Source of the DNA: Tepidisphaeraceae bacterium
Lineage (GTDB): Bacteria; Planctomycetota; Phycisphaerae; Tepidisphaerales; Tepidisphaeraceae
DNA: 64,000 nucleotides
Direction: 5' to 3'
NCBI GenBank assembly: GCA_049840775.1
Contig: JASGJJ010000005.1
Coordinates: 1,453,762 to 1,517,761, forward strand
Shown: positions 32,422 to 61,774 of the stretch, one piece after another
Layout: every line of letters begins with the position of its first letter
How positions within the stretch are numbered: position 1 is the stretch's first letter
Program-made: the position numbers and the translations under genes
Notes under the pieces: model-generated
What the model was told of the DNA's origin: nothing
The model's input: only the letters and a program-made list of their open reading frames with translations
Database searches by the model: none

Positions 32422-33210
32422 ATGAGCACTCCCTCGTCAGCCCCGTCGGCCAGCGTCTCTTCCACGATCGTCATCCGTATCAAGCGGCAGGACGGCCCGA
32501 ACAAGCCGAGCCGCTGGGAAGAGTTCAGCGTGCCCAAGCGGCCGAACATGAACATCATCTCGGCGCTCCAATACATCGCCGCGAACCCGACGACGACCGA
32601 CGGCAAGAACACCACCACGCCCGTCTGGGACAGCGGCTGCCTGGAAGAAGTCTGCGGCGCCTGCACGATGGTCATCAACGGCAAGGTGCGCCAGAGCTGC
32701 TCGGCACTGATCGATAGAATTTCCCCCGACGGCAGCCCGATTTCGCTCGAGCCGATGACCAAGTTCCCGCTCGTCCGCGATCTGTGGGTTGACCGCACCC
32801 GACTGTTCAACGACCTCACGAAAGTGAAAGCGTGGGTGCCGATCGACAGCACCTACGACCTCGGCGCCGGCCCGCCCGTCAGCCAGGAACTGCAGGACGA
32901 GCGCTACCCGCTCAGCCGCTGCATCAGCTGCGGCTGCTGCCTGGAAGCCTGCCCGCAGTACACGCCGACGAATCACTTCGTCGGTGCTGCCGTCATCAGC
33001 CAGGCGCGGCTGTTCAACGACCACCCCACGGGTGCCGCTTTGAAGGACGAACGCCTGCAGGCGTTGATGGAAGACGGCGGCGTCCACGAGTGCGGCAAAG
33101 CCGGCAACTGCGTGCAGGTCTGCCCCAAAGAAATCCCGCTCCTCGAAAGCATCGCCGCCGTCCAACGGCAGGCGACGGTCTACTCGATCAAGCGGTTCTT
33201 CTCGAAGTAG
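32422..33210 (+). CDS. sdhB: Succinate dehydrogenase/fumarate reductase iron-sulfur subunit
   Basis: It uses ATG 32422 inside ORF 32380..33210. The three cluster motifs are SGCLEEVCGACTMVINGKVRQSC (2Fe-2S), CISCGCCLEACP (4Fe-4S) and CGKAGNCVQVCP (3Fe-4S). Confidence 0.85.
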   Translation: MSTPSSAPSASVSSTIVIRIKRQDGPNKPSRWEEFSVPKRPNMNIISALQYIAANPTTTDGKNTTTPVWDSGCLEEVCGACTMVINGKVRQSCSALIDRISPDGSPISLEPMTKFPLVRDLWVDRTRLFNDLTKVKAWVPIDSTYDLGAGPPVSQELQDERYPLSRCISCGCCLEACPQYTPTNHFVGAAVISQARLFNDHPTGAALKDERLQALMEDGGVHECGKAGNCVQVCPKEIPLLESIAAVQRQATVYSIKRFFSK

Positions 33211-33226
33211 CCCGCAAAGCGGTCCG

Positions 33227-33790
33227 TTGAATCCGATTTACCGAGCAATACTCGTTGCGCAAGCCAAAGGTAAAAGCAATTGCTCTAGTAGCACTCGCGC
33301 TGCGCTACCGGCCGCATTCATTCTGATCATTCTATTTGGACCTGAAGCACAGCAAGCCAGACGGCAAGCCAAACAAATTCAATGTTCGACCAATTTGCGA
33401 AAGATTGGTCTTGCATTCCAGGCATATATCAACGCCGATCGTAACGGAGACTTTCCGCCCGATTTGCCGACGCTGGTTGTGTCTCAAGAACTAAGTGCTG
33501 ATGTTTTTCTGGACCCTGCCGACCCTAGCAGACGAACCGAAGTCGGTCCGGTCAACAATTGGGCGTCTAAAATCGTGCCTGGTTCTGATCACTGCGATTA
33601 CATCTACCCGTATCAATCAGGTTGGAATCAATCGATCAATCCTAAGACGATCGTTCTTTACGAGCCATTATCGAGCCATAACGGTGACGGGATCAACGTC
33701 GTCTACGCCGATGGTGAGGTTAATTGGCTGGAGACTGGGGACGCATCGCGTGTTATCGCGTCGATCCAAGGCGGTCACAATCCGCCGTAA
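33227..33790 (+). CDS. DUF1559 / H-X9-DG-type (pseudopilin-like) protein lacking a recognisable prepilin leader; lies in a low-GC islet
   Basis: The ORF starts at TTG and is 187 aa. It has ..FILIILFGPEAQQARRQAKQIQCSTNLRKIGLAFQAY.. and a C-terminal ..SSHNGDGINVVYADGEVNWLE.., but no GFTLIELLVV-type N-terminus. Hand-counted 60-nt samples are ~50-52% GC. Confidence 0.6.
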   Translation: MNPIYRAILVAQAKGKSNCSSSTRAALPAAFILIILFGPEAQQARRQAKQIQCSTNLRKIGLAFQAYINADRNGDFPPDLPTLVVSQELSADVFLDPADPSRRTEVGPVNNWASKIVPGSDHCDYIYPYQSGWNQSINPKTIVLYEPLSSHNGDGINVVYADGEVNWLETGDASRVIASIQGGHNPP

Positions 33791-33829
33791 CGGGCTCGAT
33801 TTTTTCGTCCGAACGCCTATTGTTCTGCC

Positions 33830-34186
33830 ATGCCCAAACTCACCATTGAAGCCGTCGGCGAATTCGAAATCCCGGCCGGTAAGCGGCTCATCAAGGCCAT
33901 TCTCGACGACGCCAAGGCGGACCAGCATTACTCCTGCGGCGGGCAGGCGAAATGCACGTCGTGCAAGGTGCAGTTCATTTCCGGTGAGCCGGCGAAAATC
34001 ACGCAGGCGGAAAAGGATTTGATCGCCATCGGCAAGTTCGCGCCGCAGCCGGGCGAGCGGTTGAGCTGTCAGTGTGTCGTGGATGGGGACGCGACGATCA
34101 AGCTGCTTGTGCCGCGACCGCCGACCAAATTTCCGAACACGCCGAGCGATGAAATTGAACCACCGGCGGTTTGGGTGGATCGCTAA
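33830..34186 (+). CDS. 2Fe-2S ferredoxin-like protein
   Basis: The ORF is 118 aa. The Cys pattern is YSCGGQAKCTSCKV .. RLSCQC (C-x4-C-x2-C ... C). Confidence 0.75.
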   Translation: MPKLTIEAVGEFEIPAGKRLIKAILDDAKADQHYSCGGQAKCTSCKVQFISGEPAKITQAEKDLIAIGKFAPQPGERLSCQCVVDGDATIKLLVPRPPTKFPNTPSDEIEPPAVWVDR

Positions 34187-47334: not shown

Positions 47335-47532
47335 TCGCCATATTTTCCCCGAGTTGTCCGATTAGCCGCCGACTTCGTCGGCGTTATTGAGTGGCCCTTC
47401 CACCTCGCGAGCAAAGCTCGCGGCTAAGCGAAGTTCGATTCTCGGCGTCATCCGTCGACCACTTTCTTGCGTAACCGTTGGCATTCGGCCGGCCGGCCGT
47501 TTACATTTCCGGGCCCTACGGAGCCGACACGC

Positions 47533-48420
47533 ATGTACCGAACCTGGGTGATCACCCGCCACACCTTCATTGAAGCCATCAGCCAGCCGATCTATTCGCT
47601 GCTGCTGAGCATCGGTGCGGCCATCCTGCTGATCTTCGCCTTCCTGCCGTTTTTCACGCTCGGCGAAGACACCGTCATGTTCACCTCCGTCGGGCTGGAC
47701 GTCGTCACCGTGCTGGTGCTGGTCGTGACGCTGTTCGCCACCAGCCGGTCGGTTCACGAAGAAATCGAAGACCGGACGATGCTCACCCTCATGAGCAAGC
47801 CGGTCAGCCGGTTGGAAGTGATCCTCGGGAAATATCTCGGCCTGTTCCTTTCGGCCGGCATGGCGATCGCGGTGCTGGGCGCCTTGCTCTGCCTGTGCAC
47901 GTGGTTCCGCATCCCGACCGATTACATGCTCAACAACCGCTCGATCGACGAGCGTGAAATCAACCGCCTGTTCAACATGCGGACGAGCATCCTCGCGGGC
48001 CTGTACCCGAGCCTGCTGTTGGTCTGGCTGCAGATCGGCACGCTGGCGGCGATCAGTGTGGCGATTTCGACGCGTTTCTCGCTCGTCGTGAACCTGCCGG
48101 CCGTTATCCTGCTGTACATCGCCGGCAACCTCACGCGGTTCCTCAGCGACGCCGTCATCAATAGCTCGATTGTCACCAAAAGCCTGGCGTTTCTCGTCTC
48201 GACGCTTCTGCCGTTCCTGGAAGTGTTCGACATGAAGAAGTACACGGTCTTCTCCAAGCTCGGCATGGACTCCGGCGACACCAGCCACGTCTTCACGTCG
48301 ACCTATATCTGGACGAACGTCGGCCTGTCCGTGCTGTACGCGGCCTTCTACGCCGCCTTCGCGCTCACCGTTGGCATCCTGATCTTCCGCAAGCGCGAAC
48401 TCGGCGGCAACGAAGGCTGA
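47533..48420 (+). CDS. ABC-2-type transporter permease (no adjacent ATPase gene)
   Basis: It uses ATG 47533 (MYRTWVITRHTFIEAISQPIYSLLL..) inside ORF 47467..48420. It has about 6 TM helices and ..EEIEDRTMLTLMSKPVSR.. Confidence 0.65.
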   Translation: MYRTWVITRHTFIEAISQPIYSLLLSIGAAILLIFAFLPFFTLGEDTVMFTSVGLDVVTVLVLVVTLFATSRSVHEEIEDRTMLTLMSKPVSRLEVILGKYLGLFLSAGMAIAVLGALLCLCTWFRIPTDYMLNNRSIDEREINRLFNMRTSILAGLYPSLLLVWLQIGTLAAISVAISTRFSLVVNLPAVILLYIAGNLTRFLSDAVINSSIVTKSLAFLVSTLLPFLEVFDMKKYTVFSKLGMDSGDTSHVFTSTYIWTNVGLSVLYAAFYAAFALTVGILIFRKRELGGNEG

Positions 48421-54120: not shown

Positions 54121-54139
54121 GCGAAGAAGAACCAAGATC

Positions 54140-56064
54140 ATGAGCGCAGCGCCTCTTACAACGCCAGCAGCATCACCGTCCTCGAAGGCCTGGACCCCGT
54201 CCGCAAACGGCCGGGCATGTACATCGGCGGCACGGGCAGTGCCGGGCTGCACCATCTCGTCTGGGAAATTTTCGACAACAGTGTCGACGAGGCCATGAAC
54301 GGCCACGCCGACATGATCGAAGTCACGCTCCACAAAGACGGCAAGAGCGTCACCGTCACCGACAACGGCCGCGGCATCCCGGTCGACCAGCACCCGACCC
54401 ACAAAAAGCCCGCGCTCGAAATCATCCTCTGCACCCTCCACGCCGGCGGCAAATTCGATAACGGCGGGCAGGGCAACTACAAAACCTCCGGCGGCCTGCA
54501 CGGCGTCGGCTCATCCGTCGTCAACGCCCTCTCCACCAAGCTCGTCGCCACCGTCCGCCGTGACGGCGCTGAATGGCAAATGGAGTTCAGCCAGGGGAAG
54601 ACCGTCGGCAAGATCAAAAAGATCGGCCCGGCCCGCGGCAGCGGCACGACCATCTACTTCCACCCCGACCCGACCATCTTCCCGCGCACGGAATTCAACC
54701 CGGAAACCATCCGCGAACGCCTGGAAATTGCCAGCTACGTTCACAAGGGGTTGAAGGTCGTCTGGAATGACGAAACCAGCAACAAAAAAGAGACGTTCCA
54801 CCACGTCGACGGCATTCAGGCGTACCTGAAAAAACTGCTGGCCGACAAGAACGCCCGGCCTGTGCACGAACAGCCGTTCGTCTTCGAAAAAGACGGCGGC
54901 GGCATCCGCCTGGAAATGTGCTTCGCCTGGACGGAACACACCGAAGAACTCCTCAAAAGCTACGTCAACGGCATCCCCACCGGTAACGGCGGCACGCACG
55001 AGAACGGCCTCCGCGCCGGCGTCGCCAAGGCGATCCGCAACTACATCGAAACGCACAACCTCACGCCCCGCGGCGTCACGCTCCAGGTCGAAGACATCCG
55101 CGAAGGCGTCTTCGGCGTACTCAGCGTGTTCGTGGAAGACCCGCAGTTCCAAGGCCAGACCAAAGACCGGCTGAACAATCCGGAAGTGCAAGGCATGGTC
55201 GACGGTGCCGTGCGGCCGGCCGTGGAGCACTGGCTGAACAACAATCGCTCGGTCGCCGAGACGATTATCAATCGCATCATCATTGCCGCCCGCGCACGCG
55301 AAGCCAGCCGCGCCGCCAGCGCCGCCATTACGCGCAAAACCGCCACCACCGGCCGCCTCGCCCTGCCCGGGAAACTCGCCGACTGCAGCAGCACGAATCG
55401 CGCCGAGAGCGAACTGTTCATCGTCGAAGGCGATAGCGCAGGCGGCAGCGCCAAGCAAGGCCGCGACCGCGCCAAGCAAGCCATTCTCCCGCTCCGCGGC
55501 AAGGTGCTGAACACCGAAGGCCAGAGCCTGGCGAAGGTGCTGGAGAACAAGGAAATCGCCGACCTCGTCGTCGCCCTCGGCTGCGGTGCCGGCGCCGACT
55601 GTGACCCATCGAAGCTCCGCTACCAGCGCCTCGTCCTGCTCGCCGACGCCGACAGTGACGGCCATCACATTACGACGCTGCTGCTGACGTTCATCTTCCG
55701 CCACATGCGGCAGTTGATCGAAGCCGGCCGCGTTTATCTCGCCATGCCGCCGCTGTTCCGCATCGACATCGGCAAGGAAACGCACTGGGCCGCCGACGAA
55801 GCCGACCGCGCCCGCATTCTCGCCAAGTTCGCCAAGCCGAACAGCAAGGTCGAAATCACCCGTTTCAAAGGCCTCGGCGAAATGATGCCCAAGGTACTCT
55901 GGGAAACGACGCTGAACCCGAAGACGCGCCGCCTGCTGAAAGTCGAAATCGCCGACACGCTGGCCACCGACCGCATCATCAACGAACTGATGGGCAAAGA
56001 CGCCTCCGCCCGATTCCGCTTCATCATGGACCGCGCGGAAGAGGCGGACGAACTCGATGTATGA
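54140..56064 (+). CDS. Type IIA topoisomerase subunit B (GyrB/ParE family); one apparent frameshift at the 5' end
   Basis: ATG 54140 gives MSAAP. A frame change at ~54152 leads to ..SYNASSITVLEGLDPVRKRPGMYIGG and then ORF 54217..56064. Motifs include LHHLVWEIFDNSVDEA, DNGRGIP, LHGVGSS, PGKLADC, ELFIVEGDSAGGSAKQGRDR and LLADADSDGHHI. Confidence 0.88.
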
Positions 56065-56069
56065 TGCGG

Positions 56070-56080
56070 GAGCGTGAAAT
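56070..56080. repeat. Left copy of the 11-bp direct repeat GAGCGTGAAAT flanking the DUF4365-like ORF
   Basis: The exact 11-mer also occurs at 57125-57135. This copy starts 6 nt after the topoisomerase B stop and contains the ORF's GTG start (56074). Confidence 0.85.
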
Positions 56081-57120
56081 ATCCCCAATCCAGACGCATC
56101 GAAAATGAAGGTGTTCTACATGTCGACGCCGTCGTTACGACGCATGGCTCGATCTTCCGTCGCATCCATCAGGAAAGTGACATTGGTGTTGATGGGATCA
56201 TTGAAATTGTGCTAGACGAGGTCGCATCCGGACTTCTCGTCGCAGTACAGATTAAGTCCGGCGACTCTTATCTGTCAGCTGACAGGTCGGAATTTCGCAT
56301 CTCGGTCGATGATGCGCATTTAGCGTATTGGGCCAATTACGCCATCCCCGTCATCGTCGTCGCCTTTTCGCCTTCGTTGAAGAAGGCGGCATGGACTCTG
56401 GTCAGAGATCATCCTGCAATTGAGGAACAAGAGGGAAAGTCCCCCGTCGGACCACTTCGCATCCCCTTACACCGTAAATTTGATGTCGACTCACTTGCGA
56501 ACGATGTGGCATCACTCGCGCGAGTTCGTGTCGACGAACGAATGCTCATTGAATGCGCCGAGAAATGTCTGAGCGATAGGCCTGAGCAACGTAATGAAGG
56601 ATTGGTCGTACTTACGTCACATCCCAAATCGAGGGACTTGAAGATTGTTTGCGATCTGGCACGTCGTCTATTGATGGATGAATCCCGCGAGACCGCTTCG
56701 GAAGCGATGTGGGCTCTCGGCTACGGGGTCGGTCGCAGTCTCTGGTCATGGGATCCCCACAACTTGGAAGAGAGGAAAGTTATCGACTTTGCGCATCAGC
56801 TTTGCAAAACCCTTACGAAGGAAGAAGCTAAGCGATGCCTTGAACTTATTGACGATGAGCCGTTCGGAGGACCGTCGTCTTTAGGGACGTACTGCTATTT
56901 CGTGCTCCAAGCTGCATGGCACGTCGCAGAAGACGCATTGTACCAGTGTATTAGGGACACGCGAGAGCCGTTCCAACGCCGTATTAGAGCGTTTTGGATC
57001 TACTACGATGGAGAAACCGCGGACAACTTGGACAACGGGGAAATTCGAGCTGGCTTCTTAGCCGACGACGTTGAGCGCGATCTATACTTGGCGTGGTTTC
57101 CGGAGCCCGCTGATGAATAG
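56074..57120 (+). CDS. DUF4365-like (predicted PD-(D/E)xK nuclease fold) N-terminal domain fused to an all-alpha, HEAT/ARM-like C-terminal region; lies in a low-GC islet
   Basis: The ORF starts at GTG and is 348 aa. It reads ..ENEGVLHVDAVVTTHGSIFRRIHQESDIGVDGIIEIV..LLVAVQIKSGDSYL..DDAHLAYWANYAIPVIVVAF.. The family call is from memory. The C-terminus is helix-rich (..EAMWALGYGVG.., ..EEAKRCLELIDDE..). Hand-counted samples are 45-48% GC. Confidence 0.6.
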   Translation: MKYPQSRRIENEGVLHVDAVVTTHGSIFRRIHQESDIGVDGIIEIVLDEVASGLLVAVQIKSGDSYLSADRSEFRISVDDAHLAYWANYAIPVIVVAFSPSLKKAAWTLVRDHPAIEEQEGKSPVGPLRIPLHRKFDVDSLANDVASLARVRVDERMLIECAEKCLSDRPEQRNEGLVVLTSHPKSRDLKIVCDLARRLLMDESRETASEAMWALGYGVGRSLWSWDPHNLEERKVIDFAHQLCKTLTKEEAKRCLELIDDEPFGGPSSLGTYCYFVLQAAWHVAEDALYQCIRDTREPFQRRIRAFWIYYDGETADNLDNGEIRAGFLADDVERDLYLAWFPEPADE

Positions 57121-57124
57121 ATCA

Positions 57125-57135
57125 GAGCGTGAAAT
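57125..57135. repeat. Right copy of the 11-bp direct repeat GAGCGTGAAAT
   Basis: It is identical to 56070-56080. It starts 5 nt after the ORF stop (57120) and 50 nt before the glpD start. Confidence 0.85.
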
Positions 57136-57184
57136 TGCTTGTTGACCTCTTGCCAACAGGCGCGCCGGCGCAGACGCTACAGGC

Positions 57185-58768
57185 GTGCTGAGCCGTTCCA
57201 AATCTATTGCTGCCGTTGCTGCCCGGACTGAACCTTTTGACCTGCTGATCATCGGCGGCGGCGCGACAGGTGTCGGCACCGCGGTCGACGCCGCGGCGCG
57301 AGGGTATTCCGTCTGCCTGCTCGAAAAATCTGACTTCGGCAAAGGGACCAGCAGCCGAAGCACCAAGCTCGTGCACGGCGGCGTTCGGTATCTCCAGCAG
57401 GGCAACATCAGCCTTGTCATGGAAGCGCTCAAAGAGCGTGGCCTGCTCCGGCAGAACGCGCCGCACCTCGTGCATGACCTCGCCTTCGTCGTGCCCAACT
57501 ATGCGTGGTGGGAAGCGCCTTTTTACGGCATCGGCATGAAGGTGTATGACCTGCTCGCCTTCCGCTATGGCTTCGGGCGGTCGAAGCTCCTGAGCAAGGA
57601 CGAAGTCATCGCCCGCATCCCGACCCTCGAAACCGACGGCCTGCGCGGCGGCGTCGTTTATTACGACGGCCAATTCGATGACGCCCGGCTGCTGATCAAT
57701 CTCGCCACGACAGCCGCGGAACACTGTGCAACACTCATCAACTATGCCCCGGTCGTCGGCTTCACGCGTGACGAGCACGGCTTCGTCAACGGGGTGAGTT
57801 TCGTTGATGAAGAAACCGGCGTCCGCCACACCGTCTATGGCCGCAGTGTGATCAACGCCACTGGCGCTTTCTGCGATGAACTTCGCCAGATCGACGACCC
57901 TGCCGCTACGCCGATGATCGCGCCCAGCCAAGGCGTTCACTTGGTGCTCGACCGCTCATTTTTGCCCGGCACGCACGCGATCATGGTGCCCAAAACTCGC
58001 GACGGGCGTGTGATGTTCGCCATTCCGTGGCACGACTGCTGCGTCGTCGGCACGACCGACACGCCGATCAAATCGGTTTCGCTCGAACCGGTCGCGATGG
58101 AAGAAGAAATTGAATTCATTCTCAGCACCACCGCGCAGTACCTCGCCAAAGACCCGACGCGTGAAGACGTGCTCAGCGTCTTCACCGGCATCCGCCCGCT
58201 CGTAAAGGCCGGCGACGCGGGTAACACGGCGTCGCTTTCACGCGACCACACGATTCAGATCAGCAAAAGCGGCCTGCTGACCATCTGCGGCGGCAAGTGG
58301 ACGACCTACCGAAAGATGGCGGAAGACTGTGTGGACCATGCCGCCACGCTCGGCAAACTCGACGAACGGCCGTGCACGACCAGGGCCCTGAAAATTCATG
58401 GCCATCACGAAAACGCCGACGCTTTCGGCGACCTGCGATACTACGGCTCCGACGCCCCGGCCGTCCGCGCGTTGATCGACGCCGACGCCACCCTCGCCGA
58501 TCGCCTACACCCGGCCTTGCCCGTCATTGCCGCCGAAATTATCTGGGCGGTGCGGAACGAAATGTCGCGCACGGTCGACGACGCCTTGTCCCGGCGGACG
58601 CGGTCGCTGCTCCTGAACGCAAAGGCCGCCATAGAAATGGCGCCAGCCGTCGCGGCGATCATGCGAAAAGAACTCGGCCGCGATGCAGAATGGGAGCGGA
58701 AGCAGATTGCTGATTTCGTCACAATCGCTTCAGCCTACGTATTGCCAACGTCTCAAGTCGGTTCGTAA
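57185..58768 (+). CDS. glpD: FAD-dependent glycerol-3-phosphate dehydrogenase
   Basis: The ORF starts at GTG. It reads ..FDLLIIGGGATGVGTAVDAAARGYSVCLLEKSDFGKGTSSRSTKLVHGGVRYL.. and has the C-terminal alpha-GPDH domain. Confidence 0.88.
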   Translation: MLSRSKSIAAVAARTEPFDLLIIGGGATGVGTAVDAAARGYSVCLLEKSDFGKGTSSRSTKLVHGGVRYLQQGNISLVMEALKERGLLRQNAPHLVHDLAFVVPNYAWWEAPFYGIGMKVYDLLAFRYGFGRSKLLSKDEVIARIPTLETDGLRGGVVYYDGQFDDARLLINLATTAAEHCATLINYAPVVGFTRDEHGFVNGVSFVDEETGVRHTVYGRSVINATGAFCDELRQIDDPAATPMIAPSQGVHLVLDRSFLPGTHAIMVPKTRDGRVMFAIPWHDCCVVGTTDTPIKSVSLEPVAMEEEIEFILSTTAQYLAKDPTREDVLSVFTGIRPLVKAGDAGNTASLSRDHTIQISKSGLLTICGGKWTTYRKMAEDCVDHAATLGKLDERPCTTRALKIHGHHENADAFGDLRYYGSDAPAVRALIDADATLADRLHPALPVIAAEIIWAVRNEMSRTVDDALSRRTRSLLLNAKAAIEMAPAVAAIMRKELGRDAEWERKQIADFVTIASAYVLPTSQVGS

Positions 58769-60814: not shown

Positions 60815-61774
60815 TCAATCCCGCCAGACATCGCCGGGCTGTCGGGCGACGATTCGGTCTTGTTCTTTCGATGCCGCCAGCATGCGTTCGAGCGGTTCGG
60901 TCATCGGCTCGTGACTCAGTTTGAATGTCGAGTGGTGGATCGGCATCACACGCTCGGCTTTTACGTGGTCGGCCATTTCCATGGCTTGCTCGGGCGTGGC
61001 ATGGGCGGCGATGTACGGGTTGTACGCGCCGATGCCCAGGATCGCCAGATCGACAGCCGCCGTGCCTTGCCAGCGCGTCTGGTAGGCGGTGTCCGCGCCG
61101 TAGAGAACGCGTTTGTTGTCGGCTTCGAGGAGGAACGCGCCGTAGCCGCGATGGGTGTCGTAGAACGTGCGGGCACCCCAGTGCTGAACCGGCATCCCGG
61201 TGATGGCGAGGCCGGCGATGCGGTGCGTGTCGCCCCAGTTCATCTCGGTGACGCTGGCGAATTTCAGGTCACGCACCAGGTCGCCGACGCCTTTGTACGT
61301 GACGACGTGGCTACGTTTGGGCAGCCGGGCGAGGCTCGGGCGGTCGAGGTGATCGAAATGCGCGTGACTGAGCAAAATCACATCAATCGGTGGCAGGTCT
61401 TTGATCGCCAGGGCCGGGCGTTGCAACCGCAGCGGGCCCGCGGTCAGCAGGCCTAAACCCAGGCCGACGCGGAGGCTGAAGACGGGGTTGGTCAGAATCG
61501 TCAGCCCGCCCATTCGCAAGAGCACGGTGGCGTGGCCGACCCAGGCGGCGGCGAGGTCGGCATTCTCCCAGCCGGCTAAATCGGGGGACTTGGGGGCCGC
61601 AGGGACGTCGTGGAAGCGGTCGACCAGACGAAGCCGCCCCGTGCCCCGGCCGAGCCGGTCGGCAAGCCGTAGCGGCCATTGCTTGCGCTTCGCGAAATCC
61701 GTAATCGAACGCCAATTCAGTCGGGACATCTGTCCGAATGATACGCGAGAGTTGAGATCACCGATGTTCGCCAC
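60815..61774 (-). CDS. MBL-fold metallo-hydrolase (NAPE-PLD/YycJ-like)
   Basis: The ORF is 319 aa. It reads ..AAWVGHATVLL..ILTNPVF..VILLSHAHFDHLD (HxHxDH)..GADT..PIHHSTF.. Confidence 0.75.
   Translation of the reverse strand: MANIGDLNSRVSFGQMSRLNWRSITDFAKRKQWPLRLADRLGRGTGRLRLVDRFHDVPAAPKSPDLAGWENADLAAAWVGHATVLLRMGGLTILTNPVFSLRVGLGLGLLTAGPLRLQRPALAIKDLPPIDVILLSHAHFDHLDRPSLARLPKRSHVVTYKGVGDLVRDLKFASVTEMNWGDTHRIAGLAITGMPVQHWGARTFYDTHRGYGAFLLEADNKRVLYGADTAYQTRWQGTAAVDLAILGIGAYNPYIAAHATPEQAMEMADHVKAERVMPIHHSTFKLSHEPMTEPLERMLAASKEQDRIVARQPGDVWRD

What the first reader, a model, noticed from the sequence alone, without database searches (positions are those of the whole stretch)
56065..57184. Repeat-bracketed, low-GC single-gene cassette (DUF4365-like nuclease + alpha-repeat) between the topoisomerase B gene and glpD
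One 348-aa ORF (56074..57120) fills the whole gap between two core genes. Three observations point to an insertion. (i) Hand-counted 60-nt samples inside it are 45-48% G+C, against ~60% for the last 60 nt of the topoisomerase gene. (ii) The 11-mer GAGCGTGAAAT occurs at 56070-56080 and again at 57125-57135. That places one copy just after the upstream stop and one just after the ORF's own stop, as expected for a target-site duplication or a site-specific crossover core. The ORF's GTG start lies inside the left copy. (iii) The N-terminal ~110 aa (..DIGVDGIIEIV..VAVQIKSG..HLAYWANYAIPVIVVAF) match my recollection of DUF4365, an uncharacterised predicted restriction-endonuclease-like fold. The C-terminal ~200 aa look like HEAT/ARM-type helical repeats. 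No integrase or transposase accompanies it. Small nuclease cassettes of foreign composition wedged between housekeeping genes are typical of defence or selfish cargo. As far as I know, this domain combination has no assigned function.
Basis: partly seen in the sequence, partly recalled or inferred. Interest (0 to 1): 0.75.

Follow-up and report, generated by a model that had tools for sequence, protein, structure and literature searches.

The report
Lone DREN nuclease with solenoid tail
A single foreign-looking gene wedged between a topoisomerase gene and glpD encodes the indiscriminate nuclease domain used by Argonaute-based SPARDA immunity, fused here to an undescribed acidic helical-repeat domain, which makes it a plausible but untested one-gene anti-phage/plasmid system.

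Summary
ORF 56074-57120 (348 aa) fills the topoB-glpD gap and is the lowest-GC 1-kb stretch of the window (52.2% vs 62.7±2.6%; GC3 0.55 vs 0.74-0.87). It is flanked by an exact 11-mer.

Residues 1-147 are a DUF4365 domain. This domain is no longer uncharacterised: it is DREN, the collateral DNase/RNase of SPARDA. The catalytic motif D36-x-G-x-D40...Q59-x-K61 is intact.

Residues 148-348 form a confidently modelled, strongly acidic ARM/HEAT-like solenoid. It has no Pfam family and no specific structural relative. In 1.84 billion representative proteins it is found essentially only in this ~345-aa fusion (47 hits).

There is no APAZ domain, no pAgo and no conserved neighbour. Of 13 loci examined, 6 lie in defence islands or mobile elements. 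In hosts with GC-rich flanks the gene's GC is 5-12 points below its flanks.

Best reading: a horizontally acquired, standalone defence nuclease candidate that the solenoid holds in check and activates. This is inferred, not shown.

The 11-mer is not a staggered-cut target duplication, because its left copy carries the gene's own conserved Met-Lys-Tyr codons. It is either a short-homology crossover scar or chance. No empty-site allele could be found.

The parts
56074..57120 (+). Complete 348-aa ORF (GTG start, TAG stop): DREN/DUF4365 nuclease fused to an alpha-solenoid
   Evidence: ORF list. 34 full-length homologues at 39-51% identity. AF2 model with pLDDT 88, pTM 0.83.
56074..56514 (+). N-terminal DREN (DUF4365) PD-(D/E)xK nuclease domain, residues 1-147
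   Evidence: Pfam PF14280 at 82.6 bits against a cut-off of 24.3. PADLOC Aga_REase-PNTD1-PNTD2 matches residues 3-117 only. Foldseek top 13 hits are SPARDA DREN-APAZ chains, E 2e-8 to 2e-5. Profile vs PDB: 9qbq_A at 3e-12 and NbaDREN-APAZ at 3.5e-10.
56179..56256 (+). Catalytic motif codons: D36 (56179-81), G38, D40 (56191-93), Q59 (56248-50), K61 (56254-56), i.e. DxGxD...QxK
   Evidence: These residues are invariant in alignment A1. In the HMM alignment they align to the stretch of NbaSPARDA holding D41/Q60/K62; mutating those residues abolishes or impairs nuclease activity. The same motif is required for EAT16 toxicity.
56515..57117 (+). C-terminal acidic ARM/HEAT-like alpha-solenoid, residues 148-348 (11 helices); presumed sensor/regulatory module
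   Evidence: Domain-only AF2 model with pLDDT 92, pTM 0.87. Only generic repeat-protein fold hits, E>=0.009, TM<=0.49. No Pfam family. pI 4.6-5.3, net charge -9 to -18. 47 hits in 1.84e9 representatives, nearly all the same fusion or fragments of it.
56070..56080 (+). Left copy of the 11-mer GAGCGTGAAAT; it contains the ORF's GTG start, Lys2 and the first base of Tyr3
   Evidence: Conservation of the MKY/MKW start across the family.
57125..57135 (+). Right copy of the 11-mer, 4 nt after the TAG stop; its GTG opens a 20-codon uORF (57129-57191) that overlaps the glpD start
57121..57184 (+). 64-nt spacer before glpD: no terminator, no promoter match, no significant fold, no Rfam match
   Evidence: (z = -0.6).

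Best explanation
The gene is a horizontally acquired, self-contained defence-type nuclease. It probably rides on read-through transcription from the topoA-topoB genes: the gap is 9 nt, no promoter or terminator match was found, and all genes share one strand.

Its N-terminal DREN domain is an intact metal-dependent PD-(D/E)xK nuclease of the kind that, in SPARDA, degrades DNA and RNA indiscriminately once its copies are brought together into tetramers. Here the APAZ/Argonaute sensor is replaced by an acidic ARM/HEAT-like solenoid.

The proposed mechanism is inferred, not shown. The solenoid keeps the nuclease monomeric or occluded in uninfected cells. On binding a trigger from an invading phage or plasmid (most likely a protein, given the acidic surface) it allows or drives oligomerisation. 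The DREN domains then assemble and cut nucleic acids collaterally, causing abortive infection or dormancy.

What is shown: domain identity, intact catalytic motif, fold, rarity and fixed architecture of the family, foreign composition, lack of partner genes, and frequent defence-island or mobile-element contexts. What is inferred: nuclease activity, the trigger, oligomerisation control and the defence phenotype.

The flanking 11-mer is, at best, the scar of a single crossover at short homology between a circularised incoming fragment and the topoB-glpD spacer. It may equally be coincidence.
For: - DUF4365 match at 82.6 bits. The closest solved structures are all SPARDA DREN-APAZ chains (E 1.8e-8, ~160 residues aligned, rmsd ~3 A; E 3e-12).
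- D36/G38/D40/Q59/K61 are invariant in 33 family members. They correspond to Nba D41/Q60/K62, whose mutation kills nuclease activity; D41A also abolishes defence in vivo.
- Isolated DREN is monomeric and inactive, and tetramerisation activates it. A fused regulatory domain is therefore expected.
- Only 2 conservative deviations occur in 41 highly conserved N-domain columns.
- The C-terminal domain occurs essentially only in this fusion and is conserved over its full length.
- No neighbour is conserved across the compared loci, which points to a single-gene module.
- Defence or mobile-element contexts: L089 has type I R-M, DarT and DruA. L087 has HKD-Snf2 and a type IIG R-M. L088 has a type III R-M and a PIN toxin-antitoxin pair. 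L176 has a methylase, HATPase_c_3, ResIII and Mrr_cat on an IMG/VR contig. L172 has a tyrosine integrase and DUF3854. L085 has a Tn5-like transposase.
- The gene's GC is 5-12 points below its flanks in every host whose flanks exceed 57% GC.
- Precedent for single-gene DUF4365 fusions that defend: Divona.
Against: - No experiment exists on any member of this family.
- PADLOC 2023, NCBIfam and PHROGs have no model for the full-length protein, so 'defence' rests on guilt by association.
- 6 of 13 loci, including this one, are among housekeeping genes, and no PADLOC hit occurs among the window's neighbours.
- The window's protein departs from the family at 7 of 47 highly conserved C-domain columns, including E272T, R273Y and D276F in the near-invariant G-E-R..D motif. 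The sensor may therefore be altered or decaying in this host.
- The solenoid's role as sensor rather than scaffold, immunity-like inhibitor or localisation module is untested.
- An unregulated collateral nuclease co-transcribed with essential topoisomerase genes would be hazardous. This requires tight autoinhibition, which has not been demonstrated.
Confidence: 0.55

Rival explanations
1. Modular restriction-type enzyme. The solenoid is a DNA reader, like the HEAT-like-repeat DNA glycosylases or the inactivated EndoIII sensor of END nucleases. It would recognise modified or foreign DNA directly and position the nuclease to cut it, with no abortive infection.
For: The nuclease-plus-C-terminal-sensor layout is the layout of modification-dependent endonucleases. 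Several homologues sit beside R-M systems.
Against: The C-domain is strongly acidic in all 12 members checked (pI 4.6-5.3, net charge -9 to -18), which is unfavourable for DNA binding. No DNA-glycosylase, EVE, SRA or winged-helix relative appears among the top 50 fold hits or in Pfam. DREN in its characterised setting is sequence-indiscriminate.
Confidence: 0.1
2. Toxin or selfish addiction gene rather than immunity: a nuclease toxin delivered by, or stabilising, a mobile element (compare the eCIS toxin EAT16), with the solenoid as a delivery or immunity-binding module.
For: A DUF4365 protein (EAT16) is a validated toxin that depends on the same DxGxD...QxK motif. The family shows foreign composition and mobile-element contexts.
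Against: No secretion, eCIS or T6SS genes and no adjacent small immunity or antitoxin gene occur here. No neighbour is conserved across the compared loci. The gene persists alone between housekeeping genes in six genomes.
Confidence: 0.1
3. Housekeeping DNA-processing enzyme (resolvase or repair nuclease of the Hjc/RecU type) that happens to sit next to topoisomerase genes.
For: DREN has Hjc-like topology. Weak fold hits to RecU/Hjc-type resolvases appear in the viral library. The gene is adjacent to type IIA topoisomerase genes.
Against: It is absent downstream of topoB in all 80 related topoB loci fetched. The family is extremely rare, patchily distributed and compositionally foreign.
Confidence: 0.05
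4. About the repeat only: the two GAGCGTGAAAT copies are a coincidence. The gene arrived by some route that left no recognisable scar.
For: A third copy lies in an unrelated coding sequence. The window has 158 direct 11-mer pairs spaced 500-2000 nt apart, and an unrelated exact 12-mer pair lies in the same 1.4 kb. None of six homologue loci tested (L081, L083, L085, L087-L089) has a comparable flank repeat. A circle bounded by the repeat would be the gene plus only 8 non-coding nt, leaving no room for a recombination site. No inverted repeats, attC-like fold or recombinase were found.
Against: Only 0.045% of random gene-sized placements in this window have a >=11-mer within +-20 nt of both ends. 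The repeat brackets exactly the one gene that is the compositional outlier. The word is rare elsewhere: 3 hits in 171 loci.
Confidence: 0.6

Closest known systems
SPARDA effector DREN-APAZ (e.g. NbaSPARDA PDB 9jsz/9jt2, XauSPARDA 9qcc)
   Same: The N-terminal DREN/DUF4365 PD-(D/E)xK domain is homologous and is the best structural match. The catalytic D...QxK residues are conserved. A mechanism of oligomerisation-gated collateral nuclease activity is plausible.
   Different: The C-terminus is an all-helical acidic solenoid, not an APAZ domain. There is no short pAgo gene in the neighbourhood, so there is no guide-directed sensing. The protein is ~100 aa shorter.
Divona (DUF4365 + crr6 single-gene anti-phage cassette of the Vibrio cholerae chromosomal integron)
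   Same: A one-gene system with an N-terminal DUF4365 nuclease fused to an unrelated C-terminal domain, carried as a small cassette.
   Different: The C-terminal domain here has no crr6 (PF08847) match. There is no integron, attC or integrase, and the host phylum differs. Only Divona has a demonstrated phenotype.
EAT16 (eCIS-associated toxin with DUF4365)
   Same: A two-domain protein with an N-terminal DUF4365 and the same DxGxD...QxK motif, which is needed for toxicity.
   Different: No contractile injection system is nearby. The C-terminal domains were not compared because the EAT16 sequence was not at hand.
END nucleases and other modular type IV restriction enzymes
   Same: An N-terminal nuclease plus a C-terminal sensor domain in a single polypeptide, encoded in defence islands.
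   Different: END nucleases use a PLD nuclease and an inactivated EndoIII reader. Here the nuclease is DREN and the C-domain is an acidic solenoid with no DNA-reader homology.
ARM/HEAT/TOG alpha-solenoid proteins
   Same: A stacked helical-hairpin fold (11 helices), with generic Foldseek matches to designed armadillo proteins, CLASP TOG domains and the symplekin HEAT domain.
   Different: E>=0.009, TM<=0.49 and 10-17% identity. No Pfam repeat family reaches threshold. This is a resemblance of fold class only.

Membership tests
DUF4365 / DREN nuclease domain (PF14280) | Match to the family HMM above the curated threshold | tested here: met
   82.6 bits against a cut-off of 24.3, E=3.6e-23, residues 10-142 covering profile positions 1-133 of 139. 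All 33 aligned members match.
DUF4365 / DREN nuclease domain (PF14280) | Catalytic motif DxGxD...QxK | tested here: met
   D36-I-G38-V-D40 and Q59-I-K61 are invariant in A1. They align to the stretch of NbaDREN that holds D41/Q60/K62 and fit the motif as given for EAT16.
DUF4365 / DREN nuclease domain (PF14280) | [quoted passage not shown] | tested here: met
   AF2 model at pLDDT 88. The top 13 PDB hits are DREN-APAZ chains with probability 1.00 and rmsd 2.8-4.0 A over 149-162 columns.
DUF4365 / DREN nuclease domain (PF14280) | Metal-dependent nuclease activity | not testable with these tools
   Requires biochemistry.
SPARDA (short pAgo + DREN-APAZ) | APAZ domain C-terminal to the nuclease | tested here: not met
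   The PADLOC REase-APAZ models match only residues 3-117, on profile positions 5-118 of 429. The PDB profile match ends at about residue 120. The C-terminal half is an all-helical solenoid.
SPARDA (short pAgo + DREN-APAZ) | Adjacent short Argonaute (MID-PIWI) gene | tested here: not met
   The neighbours are topoB and glpD. Eight surrounding proteins give no PADLOC hit. No pAgo lies next to any homologue examined.
Divona | C-terminal crr6 (PF08847) domain | tested here: not met
   No such Pfam hit in the window protein or in any of the 33 members, even at E<=5.
Divona | Integron cassette context (attC, integron integrase) | tested here: not met
   The 64-nt downstream spacer folds no better than shuffled sequence (z = -0.6). 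No integrase was seen among the neighbours scanned.
Transposon / IS-type insertion with target-site duplication | Direct repeat of target sequence at both ends | tested here: inconclusive
   An exact 11-mer lies at both ends, with positional p~4.5e-4. However, the left copy encodes the gene's own conserved M-K-Y start, so it is not purely target-derived. A third copy and many other 11-mer repeats exist in the window.
Transposon / IS-type insertion with target-site duplication | Terminal inverted repeats and a transposase or recombinase | tested here: not met
   No inverted repeat occurs at the element ends. The single ORF is a nuclease-solenoid fusion, and no transposase or integrase was found among the neighbours scanned.
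Transposon / IS-type insertion with target-site duplication | Empty-site allele in relatives | tested here: inconclusive
   80 topoB loci (<=86% identity) lack glpD and the gene downstream, and every downstream sequence inspected (11 closest loci) differs. 80 glpD loci (<=73% identity) share no other window gene. No sufficiently close genome is available.
HEAT/ARM repeat proteins | Sequence match to a repeat family, or a specific structural relative | tested here: inconclusive
   Only sub-threshold, sporadic HEAT_2/HEAT_EZ/ARM_ECM29 hits. Fold hits are generic: E 0.009-0.09, TM 0.25-0.49.

The most novel reading that the evidence does not exclude
This rare ~345-aa family is an Argonaute-independent, single-protein abortive-infection system. 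A previously undescribed acidic solenoid senses a phage or plasmid protein, or acts as a DNA-mimicking lid on the nuclease, and releases DREN domains to tetramerise into a collateral DNase/RNase. It would show that the SPARDA effector has been re-wired to a protein-sensing module. In this genome it may have entered as a minimal 1,055-bp gene circle through an 11-bp crossover.
Probability: 0.3. Interest if true: 0.6.

Novelty: new variant of a known kind. Interest (0 to 1): 0.42.

Why it matters
DREN is so far understood only as the Argonaute-gated effector of SPARDA, and it is being developed for nucleic-acid diagnostics. A compact protein that couples the same nuclease to a different, self-contained sensor would have three uses:
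- It would give a second, simpler model for how DREN oligomerisation is controlled.
- It would add a one-gene candidate to the defence repertoire of poorly studied phyla (Planctomycetota, Acidobacteriota, Ignavibacteriota).
- If the trigger is a protein, it would offer a protein-activated collateral nuclease.

The practical stakes are moderate. Single-gene nuclease-sensor fusions are a common theme in defence biology, and nothing here is demonstrated experimentally.

Tried and rejected
1. Empty-site search. The genome-contig scan with topoB returned 80 loci, the best at 86% identity. None has glpD or the gene downstream, and every downstream sequence inspected (11 closest loci) differs. The metagenome scan with glpD gave a best hit of 73% and no shared neighbours. 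The exact-protein look-up of the window's own protein found nothing on record. The test is therefore uninformative, neither supporting nor refuting.

2. Conserved partner gene. Similar-sized ORFs (180-188 aa) lie immediately downstream in three loci, but they proved unrelated to each other.

3. AlkD-like or other DNA-reader identity for the solenoid. No such fold or Pfam hits were found, and the domain is acidic.

4. Alternative N-terminal effectors fused to the solenoid (a domain-shuffling signature). The exhaustive profile search found only the same fusion, fragments of it, a longer 430-aa variant, and a few large generic repeat proteins at weak E-values.

5. Integron, attC or transposon signatures. 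No inverted repeats, no significant fold and no Rfam match.

6. Plasmid and phage carriage. Plasmid records match only the nuclease domain. There is no PHROG match. One IMG/VR contig carries a full-length relative, but its neighbourhood looks like a defence island rather than a phage.

7. 11-mer as a common genomic repeat. It is rare in 171 other loci. However, the dinucleotide-shuffle expectation understates word repetition in this genome.

8. Own promoter or terminator for the gene. None was found.
Full report
**Observation**

The window holds an intact ORF at 56074-57120 (+): GTG start, 348 aa, TAG stop. It begins 9 nt after the stop of a GyrB/ParE-type gene (54217-56064; Pfam domains DNA_gyraseB, Toprim, HATPase_c and DNA_gyraseB_C). 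It ends 64 nt before a glpD-type FAD dehydrogenase gene (57185-58768; Pfam DAO and DAO_C).

Its composition is clearly aberrant.
- The ORF is 52.2% G+C, against 62.7% (sd 2.6) for all 1047-nt stretches of the window. It is the minimum of the whole 64 kb.
- Third-position G+C is 0.55, against 0.74-0.87 in ten neighbouring genes.
Sixty-nucleotide samples range 43-63% with a mean of 52%. The contrast itself is real.

The 11-mer GAGCGTGAAAT lies at 56070-56080 and 57125-57135 as reported. A third copy lies at 47950-47960 inside an ABC-2 permease coding sequence.

**What the protein is**

Residues 10-142 match Pfam DUF4365 at 82.6 bits, against a cut-off of 24.3. The only PADLOC models hit are the Argonaute-associated 'REase-PNTD1-PNTD2' (nuclease-APAZ) models, and the match covers only residues 3-117 on profile positions 5-118 of 429.

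An AlphaFold2 model built on 33 family members is confident (pLDDT 88, pTM 0.83). Its 13 best PDB matches are all DREN-APAZ chains of SPARDA complexes (9qcc, 9vx6, 9qbp, 9jt2, 9jsz, 9qbq). They have E-values of 2e-8 to 2e-5, 149-162 aligned columns and rmsd of about 3 A. A sequence profile of the family finds the same proteins, at 3e-12 to 1e-9.

DUF4365 is therefore no longer an uncharacterised domain. It is DREN, the DNA/RNA effector nuclease of the short-Argonaute system SPARDA.
- In NbaSPARDA, D41 and Q60 coordinate Mg2+.
- D41A and Q60A abolish collateral nuclease activity, K62A impairs it, and D41A also abolishes defence in vivo.
- The isolated domain is monomeric and inactive.
- Filament-driven tetramerisation switches it on (PMC12205087; bioRxiv 10.1101/2023.06.08.544223).

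In the HMM alignment the window's D40, Q59 and K61 align to the stretch of the Nba protein that holds those residues. Together with D36 and G38 they form the DxGxD...QxK motif. That motif is invariant in all 33 aligned members and is required for toxicity of the DUF4365 toxin EAT16 (PMC11297309). The window's N-domain deviates from the family at only two conservative positions out of 41 highly conserved columns.

Residues 148-348 form eleven helices. Modelled alone they give pLDDT 92 and pTM 0.87. Fold search returns only generic alpha-solenoids: designed armadillo proteins, CLASP TOG domains, importin-alpha and the symplekin HEAT domain. These have E>=0.009, TM<=0.49 and 10-17% identity.
- No Pfam family reaches threshold in any member.
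- A profile of this domain finds nothing in the PDB beyond a designed repeat protein at E=0.09.
- The domain is strongly acidic in every member checked, with pI 4.6-5.3 and net charge -9 to -18.

So 'HEAT/ARM-type helical repeats' is right as a fold class. It is not membership of any defined family.

**How common the family is and what it travels with**

A word-indexed search of 5.8 billion clusters found 34 full-length homologues at 39-51% identity, all about 340-380 aa long and all carrying PF14280. Named sources include Tepidisphaeraceae (the window's own MAG, on a 1.58-Mb contig), Phycisphaerae, Ignavibacteriae and Thermoanaerobaculia.

An exhaustive HMMER scan of 1.84 billion representatives with the C-domain profile gave only 47 hits at E<=0.001. 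These are the same fusion with the domain at about residues 147-340, fragments of it, a 430-aa variant with extra C-terminal repeats, and a few huge generic repeat proteins at weak E-values. The solenoid is thus essentially private to this fusion, and no alternative effector domains were seen.

NCBIfam and PHROGs have no model for the protein. Plasmid records match only the nuclease domain. Full-text searches found no description of this fusion.

**Genomic contexts**

Thirteen loci were examined: the window and twelve homologue loci. In every locus the gene stands alone, and the flanking ORFs compared across six of them are unrelated to each other.

Six loci are defence islands or mobile elements:
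- L089 lies between a type I R-M system and a DarT module, with DruA nearby.
- L087 lies next to an HKD-Snf2 helicase and a type IIG R-M enzyme.
- L088 lies directly after a type III R-M system and a PIN/Phd toxin-antitoxin pair.
- L176 is an IMG/VR contig carrying a DNA methylase, a HATPase_c_3 protein, a ResIII helicase and an Mrr_cat nuclease.
- L172 carries a tyrosine integrase and DUF3854.
- L085 has a Tn5-like transposase 1.7 kb away.

Six loci, including the window, lie among housekeeping genes. One locus has only hypothetical genes. The window's own neighbours give no PADLOC hit.

In 11 of 12 homologue loci the gene's GC is below that of its flanks. In every host whose flanks exceed 57% G+C the deficit is 5-12 points, like the 10 points seen here. 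This fits repeated recent horizontal acquisition.

**Is it an insertion, and what is the 11-mer?**

Foreign origin is well supported by composition and by the patchy distribution. The direct test, an empty site in a relative, could not be made.
- The 80 best topoB loci from species-representative genomes reach only 86% identity. None has glpD or the gene within 6 kb downstream, and the sequence after the topoB stop differs in each of the 11 closest loci inspected.
- The best glpD match in the metagenome collection is 73% identical and shares no other window gene.
- The window's own protein is not in the gene-position index.

The repeat is positionally unusual. Only 0.045% of random gene-sized placements in this window have a >=11-nt direct repeat within 20 nt of both ends. 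The word occurs just three times in 171 other loci.

Four observations temper this.
- The window contains 158 direct 11-mer pairs spaced 500-2000 nt apart and 1480 11-mers that occur three or more times, so the shuffle-based expectation of 0.03 is too optimistic.
- An unrelated exact 12-mer, GAGCCGTTCCAA, links 56965 and 57190 within the same 1.4 kb.
- None of the six homologue loci tested (L081, L083, L085, L087-L089) has a comparable flank repeat.
- There are no terminal inverted repeats, no attC-like fold (z = -0.6), no Rfam match and no recombinase.

The left copy also contains GTG-AAA-T, the Met-Lys-Tyr start that the family conserves as MKY/MKW. That sequence came with the gene, so a staggered-cut target duplication is improbable. 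If the repeat is a scar, it is that of a single crossover at a short shared word between a circularised fragment (the gene plus 8 nt, 1,055 bp in all) and the topoB-glpD spacer. I put about 0.3-0.4 on that reading and about 0.6 on coincidence.

**Mechanism proposed**

Shown: an intact DREN nuclease fused to a conserved, private, acidic solenoid; no partner genes; foreign composition; frequent defence or mobile-element contexts.

Inferred: the solenoid substitutes for APAZ and pAgo as the sensor and regulator. It holds DREN monomeric or occluded until a trigger from an invader, more likely a protein than DNA given the charge, permits oligomerisation. Assembled DREN domains then degrade nucleic acids collaterally, giving abortive infection. 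Divona, a DUF4365-crr6 one-gene system from the Vibrio cholerae integron, is an experimental precedent for such fusions (bioRxiv 10.1101/2024.07.02.601686).

In this genome the gene has no promoter or terminator match of its own. It is probably read through from the topoA-topoB genes.

One caveat applies. The window's protein differs from the family at 7 of 47 highly conserved C-domain columns, including E272T, R273Y and D276F in the near-invariant G-E-R..D motif. This is within the range of other divergent members, but it could mean altered specificity or decay.

**Comparison and verdict**

The protein is a member of the DUF4365/DREN domain family: HMM match, motif and fold were all tested and met. 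It is not a SPARDA system, since it has no APAZ domain and no pAgo gene. It is not Divona, since it has no crr6 domain and no integron context. It works most like those systems' effector and differs in its sensor.

I class it as a new variant of a known kind. Interest is moderate. The architecture appears undescribed and the family is rare, but nuclease-sensor fusions are a familiar defence theme and nothing here is experimentally shown.

Noticed in passing
window 54121-54217: The topoB-type gene seems to lack a usable start. Relatives begin M-(A/T)[16 protein letters not shown]. In the window the only nearby ATG (54140-54142) is one base out of frame with ...[26 protein letters not shown], and the first in-frame start is the internal ATG at 54217. 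This is either a 1-nt assembly indel (possible in a long-read MAG) or a non-canonical start.
   Followed up: partly
window 57129-57191: A 20-codon uORF (VKLLVDLLPTGAPAQTLQAC*) starts at the GTG inside the right 11-mer copy. Its TGA overlaps the glpD GTG start (GTGCTGA). It could be a translationally coupled leader or nothing.
   Followed up: no
window 56965-56976 and 57190-57201: An exact 12-mer, GAGCCGTTCCAA, occurs inside the DUF4365 ORF and again at codons 2-5 of glpD. It is longer than the flagged 11-mer and has no obvious meaning, which is a reminder that such repeats arise by chance here.
   Followed up: partly
window 47950-47960: The third copy of GAGCGTGAAAT lies in frame as E-R-E-I inside an ABC-2 permease gene (47467-48420).
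   Followed up: yes
L001-L011 (relatives' topoB loci): The surroundings of topoB are a synteny breakpoint in Tepidisphaeraceae. The topoA-topoB spacing varies from 136 nt to 3.5 kb, two loci lack topoA upstream, and every downstream region differs. L001 has a metallo-beta-lactamase-fold homologue (60% identical to window 60815-61774) only 1.5 kb after topoB, so the window's 4.75-kb block from the DUF4365 gene to orf183 may be a lineage-specific gain.
   Followed up: partly
L011 3880-3950: Immediately after the topoB stop, a 17-nt unit that includes the stop codon (GATGTGTAAGCCGGCGT) is tandemly repeated about four times.
   Followed up: no
L088 5177-7862: The type III methyltransferase upstream of the homologue is split into two ORFs (268 and 323 aa) that match the N- and C-terminal parts of one PADLOC model. 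A gap of about 900 nt separates them, suggesting a disrupted or phase-variable mod gene.
   Followed up: no
P0088, P0089 (431 and 430 aa): This is a longer, more distant branch of the family: a DUF4365 domain plus a solenoid extended by about 90 residues of extra C-terminal repeats.
   Followed up: no
window 33001-34000: This is the second-lowest G+C kilobase of the window (55%). It contains a DUF1559/SBP_bac_10 gene (33227-33790), a gene type typical of Planctomycetota.
   Followed up: partly
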